From: a phage
Length of the DNA: 64,000 bases
Direction: 5' to 3' (one strand)
Sequence record: PZ445450.1
Below, one piece after another: positions 514 to 8,416 of the stretch. The notes beneath the pieces were generated by a model. It worked only from the letters and a program-made list of their open reading frames with translations. It ran no database searches and was not told the origin of the DNA. Both the position numbers and the translations under genes were made by a program. Position 1 is the first letter of the stretch. Every line of letters starts with the position of its first letter.

Positions 514-1200
514 ATGGCAGAGATTAAGTCGGATGTTAACCACATCCACACTCTGCCAGATTTTGTTCAGGGAGGTCTTGACTACCTGCCTGGAGATTTT
601 CTGGCTGAGAAGGTTAATTTAGTCACATTCTTAACCGTGTACCTTAAAAGGTTGGAGGATGTTGATAAGATGCTGGTAGGTTTGGCTGAAGGAAGATTGC
701 TTAACAATGCCAGCGGAAGATACCTTGACGAAGTTGGTAATCAACTTGGTATTCTTAGAAATGGACTTTCAGATGCTGATTTTCGTGCCACACTAATTAT
801 TCAGCAGGCCGCAGCATCAAGGGGCGGGACTCGCGAAGATGTCATCTCTACCTTGCGACAATTGTTCGGAAGAGACAATTTCGATACGTGGAAAGGAGAC
901 AACTTCAGGTTTGACATAAACATTAGAAAAACCTGCTTTGACATACTGCAGTCTATCGACCAGATCTTAGATATGCTACCATTGCCTTGTCATTTGCGTC
1001 TTACAGAATCGCAAGGGCAAGCTTTTGGTTTTGAAGGGGACTCCACAGCTCTTGGCTTCGGATCAGTATGGGAAGAAAACCAGTTCGGAGTTGGGGGGCT
1101 GGCTACTTTGCTGTATGTTCCTGACGTAAGACCTGATTGGGACACCACGACCATTTATTGTGAAAGTATTACAGTAAACGCAACTAGACAGGAGGGTTAA
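514..1200 (+). CDS. Putative small baseplate/tail protein
   Basis: 228-aa ORF packed between structural genes; N-terminal LPDFVQG..YLPGDF motif; function by position. Confidence 0.4.
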   Translation: MAEIKSDVNHIHTLPDFVQGGLDYLPGDFLAEKVNLVTFLTVYLKRLEDVDKMLVGLAEGRLLNNASGRYLDEVGNQLGILRNGLSDADFRATLIIQQAAASRGGTREDVISTLRQLFGRDNFDTWKGDNFRFDINIRKTCFDILQSIDQILDMLPLPCHLRLTESQGQAFGFEGDSTALGFGSVWEENQFGVGGLATLLYVPDVRPDWDTTTIYCESITVNATRQEG

Positions 1201-3272
1201 TGGCAACAGCTGTTTTTAAACCTTACCGTGATTACTCTACAATGGCTGCACAGTTTCATTACCGAACAGTTCAGGATACTGCCGTTCCTGGTAGGGATTA
1301 TAATCATGTTGAGGGCGATGTAACTATCCCAATTGGGGCAACCAGTATTGAGATCCCCGTGGAAATTGTTGACAAATTACCCAACAGGTTGCCAAGAAGC
1401 TTCTTTATGGAGTTTTCATCAAAATCTCAAGGGGTGATGATTGGAACACAAAGGGCGAAATGTACAATAGTTTCAGATGAGAATCTTGACAGGATATCTT
1501 GGGACACTGTTGAGGAGAGAATGTTTCACCCAAGGTATTGGGTTACAACTACTCAGCAGACTGAAAGTACCTGTATTGTTGCAGATAACAACTGTTGTAT
1601 TAACCGTTTAGTGTCAAGAACATATGGAGGTATGGCTGGGTGCATTTGGGAAACAGTTGACAAGTATGACCATTTCGGTATTGGGTTTGATGATCACTAT
1701 GAGATGAGAAACACCAAGCTTTGGTTCAGAATGTCAATAACCAATGCCAGCAACTTCTCCACTCCTGAAAAGATGATTATGACTGTAGACCTTGTTGATG
1801 GCACAATCATCTATGTTCCTTTAGCTCAATATGCTGTCAGCATCTCAGAGGACAAGAATGTTGCAGAAATTCATATTGATTTTGAGGACTGCGTCGGGAT
1901 GGACCAGAACAACAACATGATGGGTGTTGATCCTCGGCAGGTGAGAAGGATTTTAATACCGCTCATGCCTAAAGACTGGGTAAGTAATAGCACAGACCCG
2001 AGAACGGAAAATGTAGAGTGTGAGTTGCGCCTAGATCTGCTCCAGCCAGACACAGGCTGGAAAATGATGCAACTTAACAATATTCAGGTTAAAGAGCACG
2101 ATGTTGGGATCTGCACCGCATATGACGATATGTGGAACGTGTCTCCTTTAAGGGTGTTGAACAATATCAAGCGTCTGGGCTATACCGGAACCATAAACCA
2201 TTATGTTGGTATGAGTCATTATTATGACTACACATGGTCAGGAACCCAATGGTCTATAAACAGAACAGGAGCGCTAAACGCTGCAGCTTATAAATGGCAT
2301 GATGATTTTATGTACAATGCCAAACGACATAACTTCGACGTTATGCAATCTGTAAGTTTTGAGCTTTTCAGCGACGCCTGCCCGTTGGAATGGACCCAAA
2401 GAGACTGGAACGATAACTACGCTAAAACAGGGTATACACCTTGTAGCTACCTCCTGTCTCCAACCATTGAAGAGGGTATGAATTTCCTTACTGCAGTATT
2501 TAAGAATTTTGCATCAGCCGCTATGAGAAACAACCTGCCAGTGATTATGCAGGTTGGTGAACCGTGGTGGTGGTACAATACCGATACTCGTAGACCTTGT
2601 ATTTATGATTACCCTACAAAACAGGCGTTTTATGATGAGACAGGCGAGTATGCATTAGATATTGGGACTATTGACGATCCTAAAACTGGCGGTGTTTACG
2701 ACAAGTATGTAGCATTTTGTCGTGGTAAGCTTGGCGCTCGTATTGCGGCTATTTCAAAGGCAATAAAAGCACACGCTGCATCAGCTCAGATGACAGCTTT
2801 GCTGTTTTTCCCAACCATTATGGAAACCGAGCTTACGCAAAAGCTGAACCTTGCTGACCAATATAAAAAGGAAGCAGGTGCTCTTGATTTCTTCTGCACT
2901 GAGTGCTACGATTGGGTGATGCAGGGAGGTATTGAAAAGGCAAAAGAGTCTGTAAACATACCTATCGTTAAGTTAGGTTGGCAACCGTCTGAAATACAAT
3001 ACCTTGCAGGGTTCGTTCCTAGCAAAGAGCTTGCTCCGGTATATGGCTACGACCCAACTAGGAATTACCAAGAATTTTTATGGAGATGTATTTGCGGAAA
3101 CATGGCAACCATAGAGTATAGATACCCTGAGGTAAAACAGTATGTGTGGGCATACCCGCAAGTAATGTCTGACAGCATCACTGTTACCGCTAGAGATTCT
3201 ACCGTGCTTCATATGGGGCAGGTTGCTCTGAAAGGGTATGTAGAAGATGTTGTCCCGCCAGACTTCTCATAA
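1200..3272 (+). CDS. Putative tail/baseplate structural protein (690 aa)
   Basis: Long ORF, start shares a base with upstream stop (translational coupling), immediately upstream of tail fibre genes. Confidence 0.45.
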   Translation: MATAVFKPYRDYSTMAAQFHYRTVQDTAVPGRDYNHVEGDVTIPIGATSIEIPVEIVDKLPNRLPRSFFMEFSSKSQGVMIGTQRAKCTIVSDENLDRISWDTVEERMFHPRYWVTTTQQTESTCIVADNNCCINRLVSRTYGGMAGCIWETVDKYDHFGIGFDDHYEMRNTKLWFRMSITNASNFSTPEKMIMTVDLVDGTIIYVPLAQYAVSISEDKNVAEIHIDFEDCVGMDQNNNMMGVDPRQVRRILIPLMPKDWVSNSTDPRTENVECELRLDLLQPDTGWKMMQLNNIQVKEHDVGICTAYDDMWNVSPLRVLNNIKRLGYTGTINHYVGMSHYYDYTWSGTQWSINRTGALNAAAYKWHDDFMYNAKRHNFDVMQSVSFELFSDACPLEWTQRDWNDNYAKTGYTPCSYLLSPTIEEGMNFLTAVFKNFASAAMRNNLPVIMQVGEPWWWYNTDTRRPCIYDYPTKQAFYDETGEYALDIGTIDDPKTGGVYDKYVAFCRGKLGARIAAISKAIKAHAASAQMTALLFFPTIMETELTQKLNLADQYKKEAGALDFFCTECYDWVMQGGIEKAKESVNIPIVKLGWQPSEIQYLAGFVPSKELAPVYGYDPTRNYQEFLWRCICGNMATIEYRYPEVKQYVWAYPQVMSDSITVTARDSTVLHMGQVALKGYVEDVVPPDFS

Positions 3273-3284
3273 TCAGGAGATAAA

Positions 3285-4325
3285 ATGTCAAAACCTAGTT
3301 TTCCATTAGAGATTTGGGCAGAGGAGGATCAGGTTCTGCCTAACACCCACAGACAGAACAGGCTACGCCCGATTGATGATTTGTGGAGAAAAGGTTGGGA
3401 TCTTGGTCAAAAGCCCTCATGCGAAGAGCTTAACTATATTTTCAATATGCTCGGGACTTGGGCAAAATACATTGCTGACGAGCAGATTCCCGCTCAAGAA
3501 GGCCGTTATCTGGTACGTGATAATAACTTGAGTGATCTTTTGAACATTCCTGTTGCCCGTAGAAACCTTGGGATTATTACTAAGGAAGAGGCAGACGCCA
3601 GGTATGTAAAAGTTACAGGTGATACAATGACAGGCCCATTGGGTTTGCAACGTATCAACTTTAAAGCTGCCGAGACAGATAAGGCTTGGATAGAGACAAC
3701 TATTGGCCCAGATAAGACAACTCTCGACTTTGGGTTAAGTGATAATTTTGGGTCGTTTGATGATGGTGGCACATCTACAATAGATGCGTTTCGTTGGAGA
3801 TTCCAGCCAACTCAGCCGGATATTAATCCAGAGTTCACTTTGATGTACCTTAACGCGATCACGGCTAACCGTGCGCTGTTGAAAGTGGTAGGCAATGTTG
3901 AAGTTGTCGATAACATGAGGTGCAATAACCTTACTATCAGCAATACAGCAACATTCACCAACTGTAATGTGGCTAGTCAGTTGACGGCTGGGTCAGTATA
4001 TGTTAATGGTGGTGCAAGTTGTGACAGTATGGTTGTAAGAAGCCAGCACTGTGTTGTCGGTAACAGAAATGTGGTGCGCTCCGTGAATGGAGTGACGGCT
4101 AACGGTAACGGTGATGTAACGATCACTATCCCGCAGACAGGTGTGCAAGACATCAGAATCGGTGCAAGACTTGTGGACGGCGTTTCTGAATCTCCAATCC
4201 GCAACGGCTACGTTGTCACAGGCTGGCATTTCGGTGACAAAAAAGAGATGCGTGGTTCAACCTACTGGGCAGGACCTTTACAAAAACTTGTAAATGGTCA
4301 ATGGATCACTGTTAATTATGCATAG
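3285..4325 (+). CDS. Tail fibre protein, paralog A
   Basis: RBS AGGAGA before ATG; N-terminus PLEIWAEEDQV.. and C-terminus LVNGQWITVNYA shared with the 5340-6383 paralog; followed by a Tfa chaperone gene. Confidence 0.65.
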   Translation: MSKPSFPLEIWAEEDQVLPNTHRQNRLRPIDDLWRKGWDLGQKPSCEELNYIFNMLGTWAKYIADEQIPAQEGRYLVRDNNLSDLLNIPVARRNLGIITKEEADARYVKVTGDTMTGPLGLQRINFKAAETDKAWIETTIGPDKTTLDFGLSDNFGSFDDGGTSTIDAFRWRFQPTQPDINPEFTLMYLNAITANRALLKVVGNVEVVDNMRCNNLTISNTATFTNCNVASQLTAGSVYVNGGASCDSMVVRSQHCVVGNRNVVRSVNGVTANGNGDVTITIPQTGVQDIRIGARLVDGVSESPIRNGYVVTGWHFGDKKEMRGSTYWAGPLQKLVNGQWITVNYA

Positions 4326-4339
4326 ATCGGAGGACTAGC

Positions 4340-4924
4340 ATGAAAATACTTCAAGAGTTTAAACTTTACCAACCGGGATCTGGCGAATACCACTCCAACA
4401 AGGAAACCAAGGAGCTGACCCCTCAAGAGGTCGAGGATTACACCGCATACACTGGGTATTTTTTACGTAATGATGATGGTGATTGGTATGTGCAGTCACG
4501 AACATTACGACAAGAAAATCCAGGGTGTATCTTCCTACTTGTTGACGAGAAGGGAATTCTTAAGACATCTACAGAAGAACCTGATGCCTTATGGCCTGCT
4601 CCAGGTCTTCGTGTGGTTATCGCCAAAAAAGAAGAGGTACCAGAAAACATTATGCTTCACCACGACGCTTTGCGTTTAGTTGGTGATGAATTTGTCACAG
4701 ACAATGAATTCTTTGTTCAACAGGCAGAGGGTGTCATAGAGACAGAACTTGCTTGGGCTACTGCTAGAATTGGTGCCTATCAAGACATGATTGACCTTGA
4801 ATATGATCTTACTGATGACCAGAAACGTAACATCAGAGATTTGAAAATGTACAGGGTAAAACTTCTTGAAATAGATACATCTAAAGCCCCTGACATTTTC
4901 TTCCCGGAGCGACCTACCCTCTAA
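4340..4924 (+). CDS. Tail fibre assembly chaperone (Tfa family)
   Basis: C-terminal MYRVKLLEIDTSKAPDIFFPERP matches the conserved Tfa signature (W.KYRV.L..VDTS.APDI.WP); sits directly after a fibre gene; RBS GGAGGA. Confidence 0.7.
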   Translation: MKILQEFKLYQPGSGEYHSNKETKELTPQEVEDYTAYTGYFLRNDDGDWYVQSRTLRQENPGCIFLLVDEKGILKTSTEEPDALWPAPGLRVVIAKKEEVPENIMLHHDALRLVGDEFVTDNEFFVQQAEGVIETELAWATARIGAYQDMIDLEYDLTDDQKRNIRDLKMYRVKLLEIDTSKAPDIFFPERPTL

Positions 4925-4935
4925 GAGGAGGTGTT

Positions 4936-5250
4936 GTGGAGTTGGATTTGGCGGCATTGTACGGTATCTGCATGGGTACCGTTGTCCCGATCTGTGTATG
5001 GGCTTTCAACCAGTGGCACACCAAATGGAAAGGCATTTCCAAGAGGTTGGATGAGCTGGAGAAAGACCTCATCTTAGTGAAAAACAGTATGGTTACAAAA
5101 GATAGACTTGATTCCGTTATCGAGACTCGGTTAAGCAAGCTAGAGGCCGATATTAACGACCTTAAGCAGGATGTCAGGACAGATGTCTCCGGCATCCGAG
5201 CTGATGTACAAAAGATTTTGCACATGCTCGTAGAGCATAGTAAAAGGTAA
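4936..5250 (+). CDS. Membrane-anchored coiled-coil protein, unknown function
   Basis: 104-aa ORF, GTG start after GAGGAGG; N-terminal hydrophobic helix LAALYGICMGTVVPICVWAF then heptad-rich region. Confidence 0.4.
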   Translation: MELDLAALYGICMGTVVPICVWAFNQWHTKWKGISKRLDELEKDLILVKNSMVTKDRLDSVIETRLSKLEADINDLKQDVRTDVSGIRADVQKILHMLVEHSKR

Positions 5251-5259
5251 ACAAAGGTC

Positions 5260-5295
5260 AGAACGGAAAGGACTCCGTTCTTGCATTTTGTTCTC
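5260..5295 (+). terminator. Rho-independent terminator
   Basis: 8-bp stem AGAACGGA/TCCGTTCT with 6-nt loop, followed by TGCATTTTGTTCTC. Confidence 0.6.
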
Positions 5296-5339
5296 TAAAG
5301 TGTTAAAATAGTCCTAAGGAATTTTCTCAGGAGAACGTG

Positions 5340-6383
5340 ATGACTAAACCAGTTATCCCTCTTGATATTTGGGCCAATCAGGATGTTGTGCTTGAAAATA
5401 CGGGAGAGTTGAATAAATCTCAACCAAAAAAAGAAGAGAGATTGAAAGGTTGGGATATGACACAAAGAATGGCATGTGAAGTTGTTAACTTTGAACTTCA
5501 CATGCTTTCTGCGTGGTTGAAGCATTTAACAGAAGATGTTGTCCCAGGATGGGATAATAGATTCTTAAGGGTCACTAATAATCTAGCAGACGTTCCAGAC
5601 AAAGCTGCTGCACGTCAAGTTCTCAATGTATACTCACCTGAAGAAATGGACGATCTATATGTTGACAAGTCTGGAGACATAATGACTCAGACTCAAACTT
5701 TAGGTCTTCAAAGAATCGAGTTTGCATCTGCGTCAACAGACAGTGCGGCAATATATACCACCATAACTCCAGACAAGACGACGATGGATTTCTGGATTAT
5801 GGACAACATCGGTGGTGCTGACGGCACAGACCTTGATGATCCTTCTCACCAAATAGATGGGTTCCGTTGGAGATTTCAACCTTCTGGTGGGCAGCCTGTG
5901 TTTTCAGCTATGAAGCTCAATGCTATAACTGCCAACCGTGCAAGACTGGCTATCCAAGGAAATCTTGAATGCAACGATGCAAAAAGTTCCTCTGCAAATG
6001 CCAATGCGGTCACGATACCAAGAGCCACTGTTAATGGACAACAATCCTGCGGAAGCGCTCAAATAGGTGGAAGAGTTGATTGTAACGATGAAACCGTCAG
6101 GGGCCAATATGCAACAGTTGGTGGAAGAAACGTGGTCCGCAGGGTAAATGGTAACGGCGCAGACAGTAGCGGTAACCTTACTATCCCTATGCCTAGCAGA
6201 GGGGTTGATGATGTAAGGATAGCAAACCGTTTTAAAACCACCTACAGAGAGTCAAGAGTCTACCCTGGACATGTGATGTGCTCTGGTAACTACGCTTATA
6301 AACACCCTTATCAAGGTGATTACTGGACAGGTGCTATCCAAAAACTTGTAAATGGTCAATGGATCACTATATCTTATGCTTAA
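5340..6383 (+). CDS. Tail fibre protein, paralog B
   Basis: ATG at 5340 after AGGAGA (track start 5337 is GTG); N-terminus PLDIWANQD.. and C-terminus LVNGQWITISYA conserved with paralog A, middle divergent. Confidence 0.65.
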   Translation: MTKPVIPLDIWANQDVVLENTGELNKSQPKKEERLKGWDMTQRMACEVVNFELHMLSAWLKHLTEDVVPGWDNRFLRVTNNLADVPDKAAARQVLNVYSPEEMDDLYVDKSGDIMTQTQTLGLQRIEFASASTDSAAIYTTITPDKTTMDFWIMDNIGGADGTDLDDPSHQIDGFRWRFQPSGGQPVFSAMKLNAITANRARLAIQGNLECNDAKSSSANANAVTIPRATVNGQQSCGSAQIGGRVDCNDETVRGQYATVGGRNVVRRVNGNGADSSGNLTIPMPSRGVDDVRIANRFKTTYRESRVYPGHVMCSGNYAYKHPYQGDYWTGAIQKLVNGQWITISYA

Positions 6384-6394
6384 AAAGAGGGTAA

Positions 6395-6661
6395 ATGAAA
6401 CTAACTCAGTTTTTATGGGGACTGGTTGCGGCATCTGATGACCCTACGAAAGTGTCCCAATCTAAGCTATGGTCGAACATAGGCATGGCGGTGATGACTG
6501 GGGTGTTTATTCATATGGGGTATAATGATACGCTTCCTGAATGGTATGCGTGGATATACGCGCCTTCAGTAGCTTGCCCCCAGCTTATTAGCAAATTCAT
6601 CTCGCTCCGGTGGGGTTGCCAGCACCCTGACCACGTTAAAAACGAAGAGCAAAAAGCTTAA
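6395..6661 (+). CDS. Small hydrophobic protein, unknown function
   Basis: 88-aa ORF between fibre genes with hydrophobic segments; possible fibre accessory protein; no motif recognised. Confidence 0.4.
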   Translation: MKLTQFLWGLVAASDDPTKVSQSKLWSNIGMAVMTGVFIHMGYNDTLPEWYAWIYAPSVACPQLISKFISLRWGCQHPDHVKNEEQKA

Positions 6662-6670
6662 GGAGAAATC

Positions 6671-8416
6671 ATGGCGCAAGACATGACAAGCTTTGAGCAG
6701 GCGGTAGATCAAGTAATTGTTGATTCTGAACGTTTGCACCTGATTGTCAACGGTAACGCTGTGGATGAAGTTGTCGTAGAGGATGGGACCACCATCCCTA
6801 CGGTACGAAAAGCCATGCTTGACACCCTTTATTTTAAAACGCCACCGATCCCTTGGGCGTATGGTGCATCCACAACAGTTTTTAACCAGCTGTACGAGTT
6901 TAAAGGGGACACAGGCCCTCAGTGGTGGTACGCTCCCGCAGCATCAAAATCTAACCCGGTTAGAATGCCAGCAGATCCTTCACAATCCCCAAACTGGAGA
7001 TTATATACCGATTCTGCAGTAATGGCAAAATACTACGCAAAACTTAACAGTCCGAGGTTCGAAGGTGACCCGCGAGTACCTACGCCTCCAATGGACGACA
7101 AATCCGAGTCTATAGCAAACACAGAGTTTGTTGTTGACTATGTGGATAGCATATTTGAAGCCATGGAGGGAATGAAAGTTACTGTAGGGTCTTTGGTGGT
7201 AAAAGGTCTTACAGAACTTGCTAACACTATAGTTGGTGGCACACTCACCTTACATGGGCCTGTTAATGGAGCAGATTCTACTGCACGCTTCAGGAACCTA
7301 ATCCTCACGGCAAATACTTCTACACTTACTTTTGCGTGGAGTGATCCTAAGCATGCAGACTGGAGAAGCACAGAGCTGCAACCTCATGAAGTGTCCACCC
7401 ACAGGGTTATAGCTGACACTATAACTTCTGGGAAACCAGTGGCTAATAATAACGATGTGCATTTTGATGGTCTAGGTAATAACTTTTTTGACTACGTGTA
7501 CATTCGTGGTAATGCCATGAAGGCAGCAACCGAACCGACATTGCAGGTAGATGGAACCACCAGGGTTAAGAACCTTGAGGTGACAGGCACTGTTACAGGG
7601 ATAACCTACTCTGTCGATGGCACCATGATTTACCCTAGCTATATTGAAAGCACGGGGGACGCATTAATAAATGGTGATTTAGAAGTTGGCGGATCTGTAG
7701 TTATTCGAGGTACAGCCTCTATCCAAAACATAGCTCTGAATACCCTAAGAGTCAATGAGCGTGCAACTTTTGAAGGGGAAGGGCTTACAGCCAACAAAGG
7801 TGTAATTACCGAGCTGACAACCACTACTTTAACTGCAACAACTGCAAACTCTGAAAACTGCAACGTTACCAGAAACTTGCAGGTAAATGGAGATGTTAGT
7901 TTAAACGCAGCAGGGACGGGCACCACCTACCTTCACAACCTTGAAATATCCGGCACAGTGACTGGGTGGCTGCCAGACTTCTCTAATGTCAACTTTGTTT
8001 GTAATGGCATTAACTCCAGCGGCAAGATAACCACCTCTCAAGAAATTGAGGCGGGTAAAACCATTACTGCCCCTACTTTCCACGCAGGAAAGGTAGATTT
8101 TGATTTAGAGGAGGTTGACGCGTCCAGTGGGACATGGACACCTAACGGGCAGGCCAGTATGTATGTTGTCCACGCGAAAGGGGATTTTACAATAGGACAA
8201 TGGCCTGGTACATCAGCGGAAGATAAACCTTATCCATTCACTGCGGTTATCTATGTCATTCAGGATGCTGTAGGTCACAACGTGACTTTGCACGATAAGT
8301 ATGCTATCCTGTCGGCAACGCCTGTTATTAATAACAAGGCTAATAGTGTTACCTTGCTGCAATTAACATATTGTGGTGTTGGTGATATCGTAGACGTAGT
8401 AATTGCACAACGTTAA
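6671..8416 (+). CDS. Tail fibre protein with conserved phage fibre motif
   Basis: RBS AAGGAGA; contains LNSPRFEGDPRVPTPPMDDKSESIANTEFV, the conserved SP.F.G.P..PT...IANT.FV fibre motif seen in T4/P2/lambda fibres. Confidence 0.7.
   Translation: MAQDMTSFEQAVDQVIVDSERLHLIVNGNAVDEVVVEDGTTIPTVRKAMLDTLYFKTPPIPWAYGASTTVFNQLYEFKGDTGPQWWYAPAASKSNPVRMPADPSQSPNWRLYTDSAVMAKYYAKLNSPRFEGDPRVPTPPMDDKSESIANTEFVVDYVDSIFEAMEGMKVTVGSLVVKGLTELANTIVGGTLTLHGPVNGADSTARFRNLILTANTSTLTFAWSDPKHADWRSTELQPHEVSTHRVIADTITSGKPVANNNDVHFDGLGNNFFDYVYIRGNAMKAATEPTLQVDGTTRVKNLEVTGTVTGITYSVDGTMIYPSYIESTGDALINGDLEVGGSVVIRGTASIQNIALNTLRVNERATFEGEGLTANKGVITELTTTTLTATTANSENCNVTRNLQVNGDVSLNAAGTGTTYLHNLEISGTVTGWLPDFSNVNFVCNGINSSGKITTSQEIEAGKTITAPTFHAGKVDFDLEEVDASSGTWTPNGQASMYVVHAKGDFTIGQWPGTSAEDKPYPFTAVIYVIQDAVGHNVTLHDKYAILSATPVINNKANSVTLLQLTYCGVGDIVDVVIAQR

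What the first reader, a model, noticed from the sequence alone, without database searches (positions are those of the whole stretch)
3285..6661. Two paralogous tail-fibre genes with conserved termini and divergent centres
The fibres at 3285-4325 and 5340-6383 share the N-terminal anchor (P.IPL.IWA..D) and the C-terminal tip (LVNGQWIT..YA) but differ in the middle; only the first is followed by a Tfa chaperone. This suggests alternative receptor-binding fibres mounted on a common attachment site, with no invertase or inverted repeats to indicate a Mu-type switch.
Basis: seen in the sequence. Interest (0 to 1): 0.55.

Follow-up and report, generated by a model that had tools for sequence, protein, structure and literature searches.

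The report
Known paired short tail fibres of rV5-like phage
The two genes are the already described pair of duplicated short tail fibre genes of rV5-like E. coli phages (rV5 gp33 and gp30) with one shared assembly chaperone. They are real and functional, but they are not a new kind of system.

Summary
The window is a Vequintavirus (rV5-like E. coli myophage), 99.4% identical to phage DrSchubert. The ORFs at 3285-4325 (STF1 = rV5 gp33) and 5340-6383 (STF2 = rV5 gp30) are true paralogues: 43% identity over the full length, E=7e-95. A Tfa chaperone follows only the first. No invertase and no meaningful inverted repeats are present. The pair was noted by Kropinski 2013 and described by Maffei 2021 as two paralogous short tail fibres plus a chaperone homologous to Mu GpS/GpU.

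- The best-conserved block is central (70% identity).
- The quoted end motifs are family-wide signatures, also found in phiTE and Mu fibres.
- The N-terminal anchor is not really shared. STF1's anchor is 57-69% identical to single-copy fibres of other genera, but only 40% identical to STF2's.

Both copies are under strong purifying selection (dN/dS 0.02-0.10). STF2 has its own putative late promoter. The whole cassette is conserved in two uncultured sister lineages. In one of these, both paralogues carry the same receptor tip.

The most likely reading is two co-expressed fibres. STF1 is the conservative ancestral copy. STF2 is a derived copy with a remodelled anchor and, in this lineage, a different tip. 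Virion incorporation of both remains undocumented in the data I could read.

The parts
3285..4325 (+). STF1, short tail fibre (orthologue of rV5 gp33). N-terminal baseplate joint ~aa 1-110, conserved central domain ~aa 108-205, variable stretch 206-255, RNVVR/VNG motif 256-285, Mu-GpS-like tip 286-346.
   Evidence: ORF. PHROG 4465 E=2e-171. rV5 numbering. N-term 1-108 matches phiTE STF 9cuy at E=1.4e-19, and tip 286-343 matches Mu GpS 5yvq. Family profile vs PDB.
4281..4309 (+). 29-nt core (codes QKLVNGQWIT) that is 100% identical to 6339-6367 in STF2.
   Evidence: Same-codon use at identical residues is 10/11 in the last 16 codons vs 43/129 elsewhere (Fisher p=2.6e-4).
4340..4924 (+). Tail fibre assembly protein / chaperone (Tfa; orthologue of rV5 gp32). 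The conserved Caudo_TAP C-terminal domain covers aa 121-192; the N-terminal domain is lineage-specific.
   Evidence: Pfam PF02413 E=9e-12, PHROG 136 E=2e-36. rV5 annotation.
4936..5250 (+). 104-aa protein (rV5 gp31) with one N-terminal transmembrane segment (~aa 3-25) followed by a coiled-coil-like region. It is conserved inside the cassette; function unknown.
   Evidence: PHROG 5345 E=1.5e-48. Hydropathy. Conserved in L003 and L007 lineages at 84% and 53%.
5260..5281 (+). Terminator-like hairpin followed by a T-rich tail, between the gp31-like ORF and STF2.
   Evidence: Consensus scan only. Sequence read. Not in the rV5 terminator list.
5288..5324 (+). Putative late promoter of STF2. Identical to 'P030' predicted for rV5 (TTGTTCTCTAAAGTGTTAAAATAGTCCTAAGGAATTT).
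   Evidence: Kropinski 2013 Table S4C, matched to the window sequence. This is a prediction, not mapped experimentally.
5340..6383 (+). STF2, second short tail fibre (orthologue of rV5 gp30). Same domain order as STF1, but with a diverged N-terminal joint and, in this lineage, a different tip.
   Evidence: ORF. PHROG 4465 E=2e-166. 98.8-100% identical to rV5-type gp30. Domain identities.
6339..6367 (+). 29-nt core identical to 4281-4309.
6395..6661 (+). 88-aa small protein (rV5 gp29, annotated as a membrane protein). It follows STF2 where a Tfa might be expected and is not a Tfa.
   Evidence: PHROG 1322 E=2.7e-32 and no Pfam hit. Conserved in the L003 and L007 lineages.
1200..3272 (+). Context: N4 gp65-like fibre/RBP (rV5 gp34) immediately upstream of STF1.
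   Evidence: Pfam TIM-barrel_NCTSP E=4e-80, NCTSP_N, Calx-beta. Present in the rV5 MS table.
6671..8416 (+). Context: 581-aa tail fibre (rV5 gp28) downstream of the cassette.
   Evidence: PHROG 4549. Pfam Phage_phiTE_241_N/C on orthologues.

Best explanation
The region is the short-tail-fibre cassette of a Vequintavirus: STF1 (gp33) - Tfa (gp32) - gp31 - STF2 (gp30) - gp29.

What the fibres are. Both are Mu-GpS-type fibres, presumably trimeric. An N-terminal globular joint docks on the baseplate wedge. A C-terminal tip contacts the LPS core and is folded with the help of the Tfa.

Origin. The pair arose by a tandem duplication that is older than the split of at least three Vequintavirus-like lineages.
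- STF1 is the conservative copy. It is the orthologue of the single fibre of related genera, i.e. phi92 gp147 ('fibre III', six trimers on the wedge) and the phiTE STF.
- STF2 is the derived copy. It evolves 1.6-3 times faster at non-synonymous sites. Its N-terminal joint is remodelled. In the rV5/L003 lineages it has a different tip.

Expression. Both are expressed late with no switching. STF2 probably uses its own late promoter.

Chaperone. The single Tfa most likely serves both fibres through features they still share: the invariant last beta-strand QKLVNGQWIT and the RNVVR/VNG block.

Shown: paralogy, homologies, cassette conservation, purifying selection, absence of switch elements. Inferred: trimer state, docking sites, one Tfa for two fibres, receptor roles, presence of both in the virion.
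For: Identity of the locus: 99.4% to DrSchubert and ~99% to rV5-type genomes, annotated as 'short tail fiber protein (x2) | tail fiber chaperone'.

Paralogy: E=7e-95.

Homologies: the family profile hits phiTE STF 9cuy at E=8e-35 (N 1-111 and tip 279-347) and Mu GpS 5yvq at E=5.5e-14 (tip 282-348 to 437-503). Tfa carries Caudo_TAP.

Literature:
- Two paralogous STFs plus a chaperone homologous to Mu GpS/GpU; LPS-core GlcI as terminal receptor (PMC8594841; LL12 screen PMC7229145).
- phi92 fibre III = gp147, six trimers on wedge gp145 (PMC13450770).
- phiTE STF residues 3-92 form the joint on wedge 1 (PMC11972413).

Duplication confined to Vequintavirus: two places per record only there, single copy elsewhere. 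In the NJ tree STF1 and STF2 are sister clades.

STF2 is the derived copy: outgroups are 0.57-0.69 identical to STF1 but 0.36-0.47 to STF2 in the joint.

Both are functional: dN/dS 0.02-0.10. The cassette is conserved in the L003-L006 and L007-type metagenomic lineages.

Own promoter: P030.

No switch.
Against: - No direct evidence that both fibres are in the virion. [quoted passage not shown] The deposited MS table, however, holds 19 loci and none of these three.
- No structure of a Vequintavirus baseplate was found.
- The docking sites, the trimer composition and the Tfa clientele are inferred.
- The AF2 monomer model was too poor to help (pLDDT 62).
- The late promoter and the hairpin are predictions only.
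Confidence: 0.75

Rival explanations
1. The two fibres are alternative receptor-binding proteins that compete for one and the same attachment site on the baseplate (six sites). Virions would then carry mixtures, and host range would be broadened by bet-hedging.
For: Both keep the invariant joint residues of the family: P4, P7, W11, A12, L18, N25, P29, G37, D39, E47, N50, W59. Both N-termini hit the phiTE STF joint (E 1.4e-19 and 1.1e-9). The related phages phi92 and phiTE have one STF set of six trimers. The tips differ in this lineage.
Against: The joint is only 40% identical between the paralogues, whereas STF1 is 57-69% identical to outgroup fibres. The STF2-specific joint sequence is conserved across three lineages, which looks like adaptation to a different partner rather than drift. 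In the L007-type lineage the two fibres carry the same tip (78-100% identity). The duplicate was therefore retained there without any receptor difference.
Confidence: 0.25
2. STF1 and STF2 co-assemble into heterotrimers and form a single fibre species.
For: Same length and domain order. The central domain is 58% identical and the last strand is shared. There is a single Tfa.
Against: Overall identity is only 43%. The variable stretch is 23% identical and contains indels. The homologous fibres described in the papers read here (Mu gp49, phiTE STF) are trimers of a single fibre protein. STF2 appears to be separately transcribed. There is no positive evidence.
Confidence: 0.05
3. STF2 is not a virion component. 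It would be a decaying duplicate or a non-structural protein.
For: gp30 is absent from the deposited rV5 MS table. No Tfa follows it directly.
Against: gp33 is absent from that table too, and the table is shallow (19 proteins). dN/dS is 0.04-0.09. The ORF is intact with an RBS and a predicted late promoter. It is present in every Vequintavirus row listed (all 16 show two places) and in both uncultured lineages.
Confidence: 0.03
4. A Mu/P1-type invertible switch selects between the two fibres.
For: The fibres and chaperone are homologous to Mu GpS/GpU (PMC8594841).
Against: Both genes are complete, co-directional and carry their own starts. There are no flanking inverted repeats.
Confidence: 0.01

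Closest known systems
rV5 gp33 / gp32 / gp30 (Vequintavirus short tail fibre locus; BASEL phages Bas50 etc.)
   Same: It is the same locus: 98.8-100% protein identity, identical gene order, and the same predicted late promoter P030.
   Different: Nothing substantive. This window is simply another isolate or contig of the genus.
Phage Mu GpS (gp49) fibre with GpU (gp50) Tfa, PDB 5yvq / 9ki1
   Same: The C-terminal tip is homologous (profile E=5.5e-14; 282-348 to 437-503), including the QK.(V/I)NG.W strand. Part of the shaft matches too (75-188 to 150-257). A Caudo_TAP chaperone lies downstream. The receptor is the LPS core (PMC8594841).
   Different: Mu alternates S/U and S'/U' by Gin-mediated inversion of the G segment, with each fibre variant having its own Tfa. 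Here there are two complete co-directional genes, no invertase, no inverted repeats, and one Tfa for two fibres. The fibres here are about 160 residues shorter.
phiTE short tail fibre (PDB 9cuy/9mjn) and phi92 gp147 ('fibre III')
   Same: The N-terminal joint is homologous (STF1 1-108 to phiTE 1-111, E=1.4e-19), and so is the tip. In those phages six trimers dock on the wedge protein.
   Different: Those phages have a single copy. phiTE's fibre is 554 aa with a long coiled coil and Ig-like domains, and phiTE is flagellotropic. phi92 gp147 is only 23.7% identical to STF2.
T4 gp12 short tail fibre
   Same: Functional analogy: an LPS-core-binding fibre proposed to mediate irreversible adsorption. 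HHpred similarity was reported for rV5 gp30/gp33 (PMC3606486).
   Different: No gp12 chain was recovered by phmmer or by the family profile against PDB at E<=0.1-1. The chaperone system differs (T4 uses gp57A; here it is a Tfa). T4 has a single gene.

Membership tests
Vequintavirus short tail fibre (PHROG 4465; rV5 gp30/gp33) | Full-length sequence match to the family profile | tested here: met
   phrog_4465 covers 1-346/1-342 at E=2e-171 (STF1) and 1-347/1-342 at E=2e-166 (STF2).
Vequintavirus short tail fibre (PHROG 4465; rV5 gp30/gp33) | Synteny: gp34(N4 gp65-like)-STF-Tfa-gp31-STF-gp29-gp28 | tested here: met
   Window ORFs compared with the DrSchubert and rV5 annotation.
Vequintavirus short tail fibre (PHROG 4465; rV5 gp30/gp33) | Both products present in the virion | not testable with these tools
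   The text of PMC3606486 says they were detected, but its MS Table S5 (19 loci) lacks 30, 32 and 33.
Mu GpS/GpU-type fibre + Tfa | C-terminal tip domain homologous to GpS | tested here: met
   Profile A1 vs 5yvq_A gives E=5.5e-14, with tip stretch i-Evalue 5.8e-8. Single-sequence STF1 gives E=8e-7. STF2 alone did not reach E<=1.
Mu GpS/GpU-type fibre + Tfa | Cognate Tfa (Caudo_TAP) encoded immediately downstream | tested here: met
   Met for STF1 (4340-4924, PF02413 E=9e-12). Not met for STF2, whose downstream ORF has no Tfa signature.
Mu GpS/GpU-type fibre + Tfa | Trimeric fibre with Tfa bound to the distal tip | not testable with these tools
   Only monomer prediction was available, and the model was poor (pLDDT 62, pTM 0.28).
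Mu/P1-type invertible fibre switch (G segment + Gin) | Serine invertase gene nearby | tested here: not met
Mu/P1-type invertible fibre switch (G segment + Gin) | Inverted repeats flanking oppositely oriented alternative 3' exons | tested here: not met
   Both genes are complete and on the + strand. The best inverted pair is 28 nt at 71% complementarity, and it does not flank the genes.
phiTE-type STF baseplate joint | N-terminal ~110 residues homologous to the modelled joint (phiTE STF 3-92) | tested here: met
   Hits to 9cuy_c: STF1 E=1.4e-19 (1-108), STF2 E=1.1e-9 (1-83), profile stretch i-Evalue 4.6e-26.
phiTE-type STF baseplate joint | Docks on the wedge protein | not testable with these tools
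   Known for phiTE and phi92 only.
T4 gp12 short tail fibre family | Detectable sequence homology to gp12 | tested here: not met
   No gp12 chain appears among the PDB hits of either protein or of the family profile. Only the HHpred claim from the literature supports it.

The most novel reading that the evidence does not exclude
STF2 is a neo-functionalised fibre that docks at a baseplate position different from the ancestral STF site. rV5-like phages would then carry an extra, fourth fibre set. In the rV5/L003 lineages its tip has since diverged to read a second LPS-core chemotype. Short-tract gene conversion between the two 3' ends would keep the strand recognised by the single Tfa identical.
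Probability: 0.3. Interest if true: 0.45.

Novelty: already known. Interest (0 to 1): 0.22.

Why it matters
rV5-like phages are among the most frequently isolated E. coli phages and are candidates for therapy and biocontrol. Their short fibres set the terminal LPS-core receptor. Why the genus keeps two of them, and how both are mounted, is still open, but it is a question of detail within a known system. This analysis adds a usable prediction: the anchor of STF2, not only its tip, is the diverged part. A sister lineage keeps two fibres with the same tip, which argues that the duplicate has a structural role beyond receptor choice.

Tried and rejected
1. AlphaFold2 monomer of STF1 with a 30-sequence alignment gave pLDDT 62 and pTM 0.28. 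Foldseek against PDB gave nothing below E=0.4. This is useless for a trimeric fibre and was not used.
2. Tfa vs PDB by phmmer gave only noise. The Tfa assignment rests on Pfam and PHROG.
3. I searched the rV5 supplements for gp30/gp33 by name and accession and found nothing. Reading Table S5 showed they are not among the 19 MS-identified loci.
4. I looked for virion proteomics or cryo-EM of a Vequintavirus. None was found in the library. The FV3 paper is not held.
5. Septuagintavirus W70 proteomics concerns the single phiTE-type STF, not this pair.
6. Recent gene conversion of the whole tip in the L007-type lineage is rejected. Same-codon use in the tip (18/46) equals that in the rest (46/112), so the shared tip is old and kept by selection.
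7. The Mu-type switch is rejected.
Full report
**What the window is.** Bases 3000-7000 match 116 phage records at 90-99.4% identity. The best are Escherichia phage DrSchubert (Bas50) and other Vequintavirus (rV5-like) myophages. In DrSchubert the region is annotated as 'short tail fiber protein - tail fiber chaperone - hypothetical - short tail fiber protein - hypothetical'. It lies between a glycosidase/deacetylase fibre and further lateral fibres. In rV5 itself the genes are gp33 (STF1), gp32 (Tfa), gp31, gp30 (STF2) and gp29.

**Check of the observation.**
- The ORFs at 3285-4325 (346 aa) and 5340-6383 (347 aa) are real. They are homologous over their whole length: 43% identity, E=7e-95.
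- Both match PHROG 4465 end to end.
- The ORF after the first (4340-4924) is a Tfa: Pfam Caudo_TAP on residues 121-192, E=9e-12, and PHROG 136.
- The ORF after the second (6395-6661) is an 88-aa small protein with no Tfa signature.
- No inverted repeat of note flanks the genes. Both are co-directional and complete.
- The claimed pattern of conserved ends and a divergent centre does not hold. The best 30-column window is central (70%, LGLQRI.F...TD...PDKTT.DF), with further 53% blocks around FRWRFQP/LNAITANRA and GxRNVVRxVNG.
- The first 30 residues are 50% identical, then 27-37% up to column 90. Only the last ~16 residues are strongly conserved.

**What the domains are.**
- Against solved structures, STF1 residues 1-108 match the N-terminus of the phiTE short tail fibre (9cuy, E=1.4e-19). 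Residues 286-343 match the C-terminus of Mu GpS (5yvq).
- A profile of 26 family members gives phiTE STF E=8e-35, matching both the joint and the tip. It gives Mu GpS E=5.5e-14 and the Mu S/S' chimera 8ju3.
- In phiTE, residues 3-92 form the trimeric globular joint that sits on wedge protein 1 (PMC11972413).
- In Mu, six gp49 trimers with gp50 dock on the wedge (PMC11915804).
- Tfa proteins have a variable N-terminal fibre-binding domain and a conserved C-terminal trimerisation domain. TfaMu stays on the mature fibre (summarised in PMC9608196). This fits the Pfam match being limited to the C-terminal third here.
They are also seen in phiTE (PIQKKVNGVWVTI) and Mu (PVQKNINGTWYNV).

**What is already known.**
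- Kropinski et al. [quoted passage not shown]
- Maffei et al. 2021 state that Vequintavirinae sensu stricto encode two paralogous short tail fibre proteins and a chaperone. These are homologous to the phi92-like locus and ultimately to Mu GpS/GpU. They show little allelic variation, and these phages need the first outer-core glucose of LPS. The LL12 genetic screen agrees.
- The finding is therefore already known.

**What I could add.**

*Distribution.* Two copies per genome occur only in Vequintavirus. Seunavirus, Klebsiella, Cronobacter and Erwinia relatives and phi92-like phages have one.

*Order of divergence.* In an NJ tree STF1 and STF2 are sister clades. Their central domain is more similar between the paralogues (58%) than to any outgroup (23-54%). 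This fits a duplication within this lineage.

*STF2 is the derived copy.* In the joint (1-70), outgroup fibres are 57-69% identical to STF1 but 36-47% to STF2. The two paralogues share only 40%.

*Sister lineages.* Two uncultured lineages keep the identical cassette. They are absent from the isolate database.
- L003-L006: STF1 87% and STF2 78% identical to the window.
- L007-type, with several IMG/VR contigs: STF1 73% and STF2 47% identical to the window.
- The paralogue-specific joint and shaft are maintained in all three lineages.
- In the L007-type lineage the last ~60 residues of the two fibres are 78-100% identical to each other and of STF1 type. In the window and L003 they are 34% identical.
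- Same-codon use in that tip (18/46) is no higher than elsewhere (46/112). So this is old similarity held by selection, not a recent conversion.
- The duplicate was therefore retained in that lineage without a receptor-tip difference. That points to a structural role for the second fibre.

*Selection.* Both genes are under strong purifying selection (dN/dS 0.02-0.10). STF2 accumulates 1.6-3 times more non-synonymous change.

*Transcription.* The 89-nt spacer before STF2 holds a terminator-like hairpin (5260-5281). It also holds the exact sequence predicted as late promoter P030 in rV5 (5288-5324).

**Small side observation.**
- The 29 nt coding QKLVNGQWIT are 100% identical between the two genes in rV5-type genomes. 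Same-codon use is 10/11 there against 43/129 elsewhere (p=2.6e-4).
- In L003/L005 both paralogues carry the same alternative synonymous variants (GTC, CAG, CTG). In L007-type genomes STF1 has GTC/CAG and STF2 has GTA/CAA.
- This pattern suggests short-tract gene conversion in opposite directions in two lineages. It rests on only 2-3 sites and is not universal: L010 and L015 differ at 2-3 positions.

**Weak point in the literature.**
- The rV5 paper's text lists gp30, gp32 and gp33 among proteins detected. Its deposited MS table contains 19 loci: 61, 60, 64, 53, 52, 133, 79, 152, 82, 34, 237, 41, 62, 235, 106, 37, 1, 27 and 228. None of the three is there. Locus 64 is inferred from the sort order and the total of 19, because part 2 of the table was not read.
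- No Vequintavirus baseplate structure or deeper virion proteome was found.

**Verdict.** This is a real, functional and already described pair of paralogous short tail fibre genes with one Tfa, and with no switch. The most likely mechanism is two co-expressed fibres: the conservative STF1 at the ancestral wedge site, and the derived STF2 with a remodelled anchor and, here, a different tip. Both are probably folded by the single Tfa.

Noticed in passing
window 4281-4309 and 6339-6367; L003 4935-4963 / 7000-7028; L007 1112-1140 / 3210-3238: The 29-nt 3' core is 100% identical between the paralogues, and synonymous variants co-vary within genomes. rV5-type has GTA/CAA in both genes and L003-type has GTC/CAG in both. 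L007-type has one state in each gene. This suggests short-tract gene conversion between the two fibre genes, in opposite directions in two lineages. Only 2-3 informative sites support it.
   Followed up: partly
L007 116-1156 and 2190-3254; also L011, L013, L018, L012/L017: An uncultured Vequintavirus-like lineage (IMG/VR and ENA contigs of 117-140 kb) keeps the same cassette. Its two STFs carry near-identical STF1-type tips (78-100% over the last ~60 aa), while their N-terminal joints and shafts stay paralogue-specific.
   Followed up: partly
Literature: PMC3606486 main text vs Additional file 5: The rV5 paper states that gp30, gp32 and gp33 were detected by proteomics. The deposited MS table lists 19 loci and none of these, so virion incorporation of the two STFs and the Tfa is not documented by that data set.
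   Followed up: yes
window 4936-5250: A 104-aa protein (rV5 gp31) with one N-terminal transmembrane segment and a long coiled-coil-like tail sits between the Tfa and STF2. It is conserved in all three lineages (84% and 53%). Its function is unknown. A membrane-anchored protein inside a fibre cassette is unexplained; an assembly helper is one possibility.
   Followed up: partly
window 6395-6661: An 88-aa protein (rV5 gp29, PHROG 1322 'membrane protein') always follows STF2. It is 73-90% conserved across lineages, i.e. more conserved than the fibres. No 19-residue window exceeds KD 1.6. Function unknown.
   Followed up: partly
window 1200-3272: rV5 gp34 orthologue with N4 gp65-type domains (Pfam NCTSP_N, TIM-barrel_NCTSP, Calx-beta). 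It belongs to the family proposed as the ECA/NGR-polysaccharide-binding RBP of Vequintavirus, phi92-like phages and N4. It is one of the few fibre proteins actually present in the rV5 MS table (10.3% coverage).
   Followed up: no
window 5260-5324: A terminator-like hairpin (5260-5281) lies directly upstream of the predicted late promoter P030 (5288-5324). This suggests that STF2-gp29(-gp28) is a separate late transcription unit from STF1-Tfa-gp31.
   Followed up: partly
GenBank records MG065655, MG065635, MG065662, MG065672 etc.: Sixteen to twenty-one records named 'Campylobacter phage' (host C. jejuni, unannotated) are 98.7-99.4% identical to this E. coli rV5-like region. The host labels look doubtful; contamination or mis-assignment is possible.
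   Followed up: no
window 3504-3584 (STF1 aa 74-100) and 5556-5636 (STF2): There is a single copy of the motif (Y/F)L...NL(S/A)D(L/V)....(A/V)AR..L(G/N). This motif occurs as 5-6 tandem repeats in the solved 'short tail fiber gp92' (PDB 9zd7) and also in Mu GpS. It is a widespread fibre shaft repeat.
   Followed up: no
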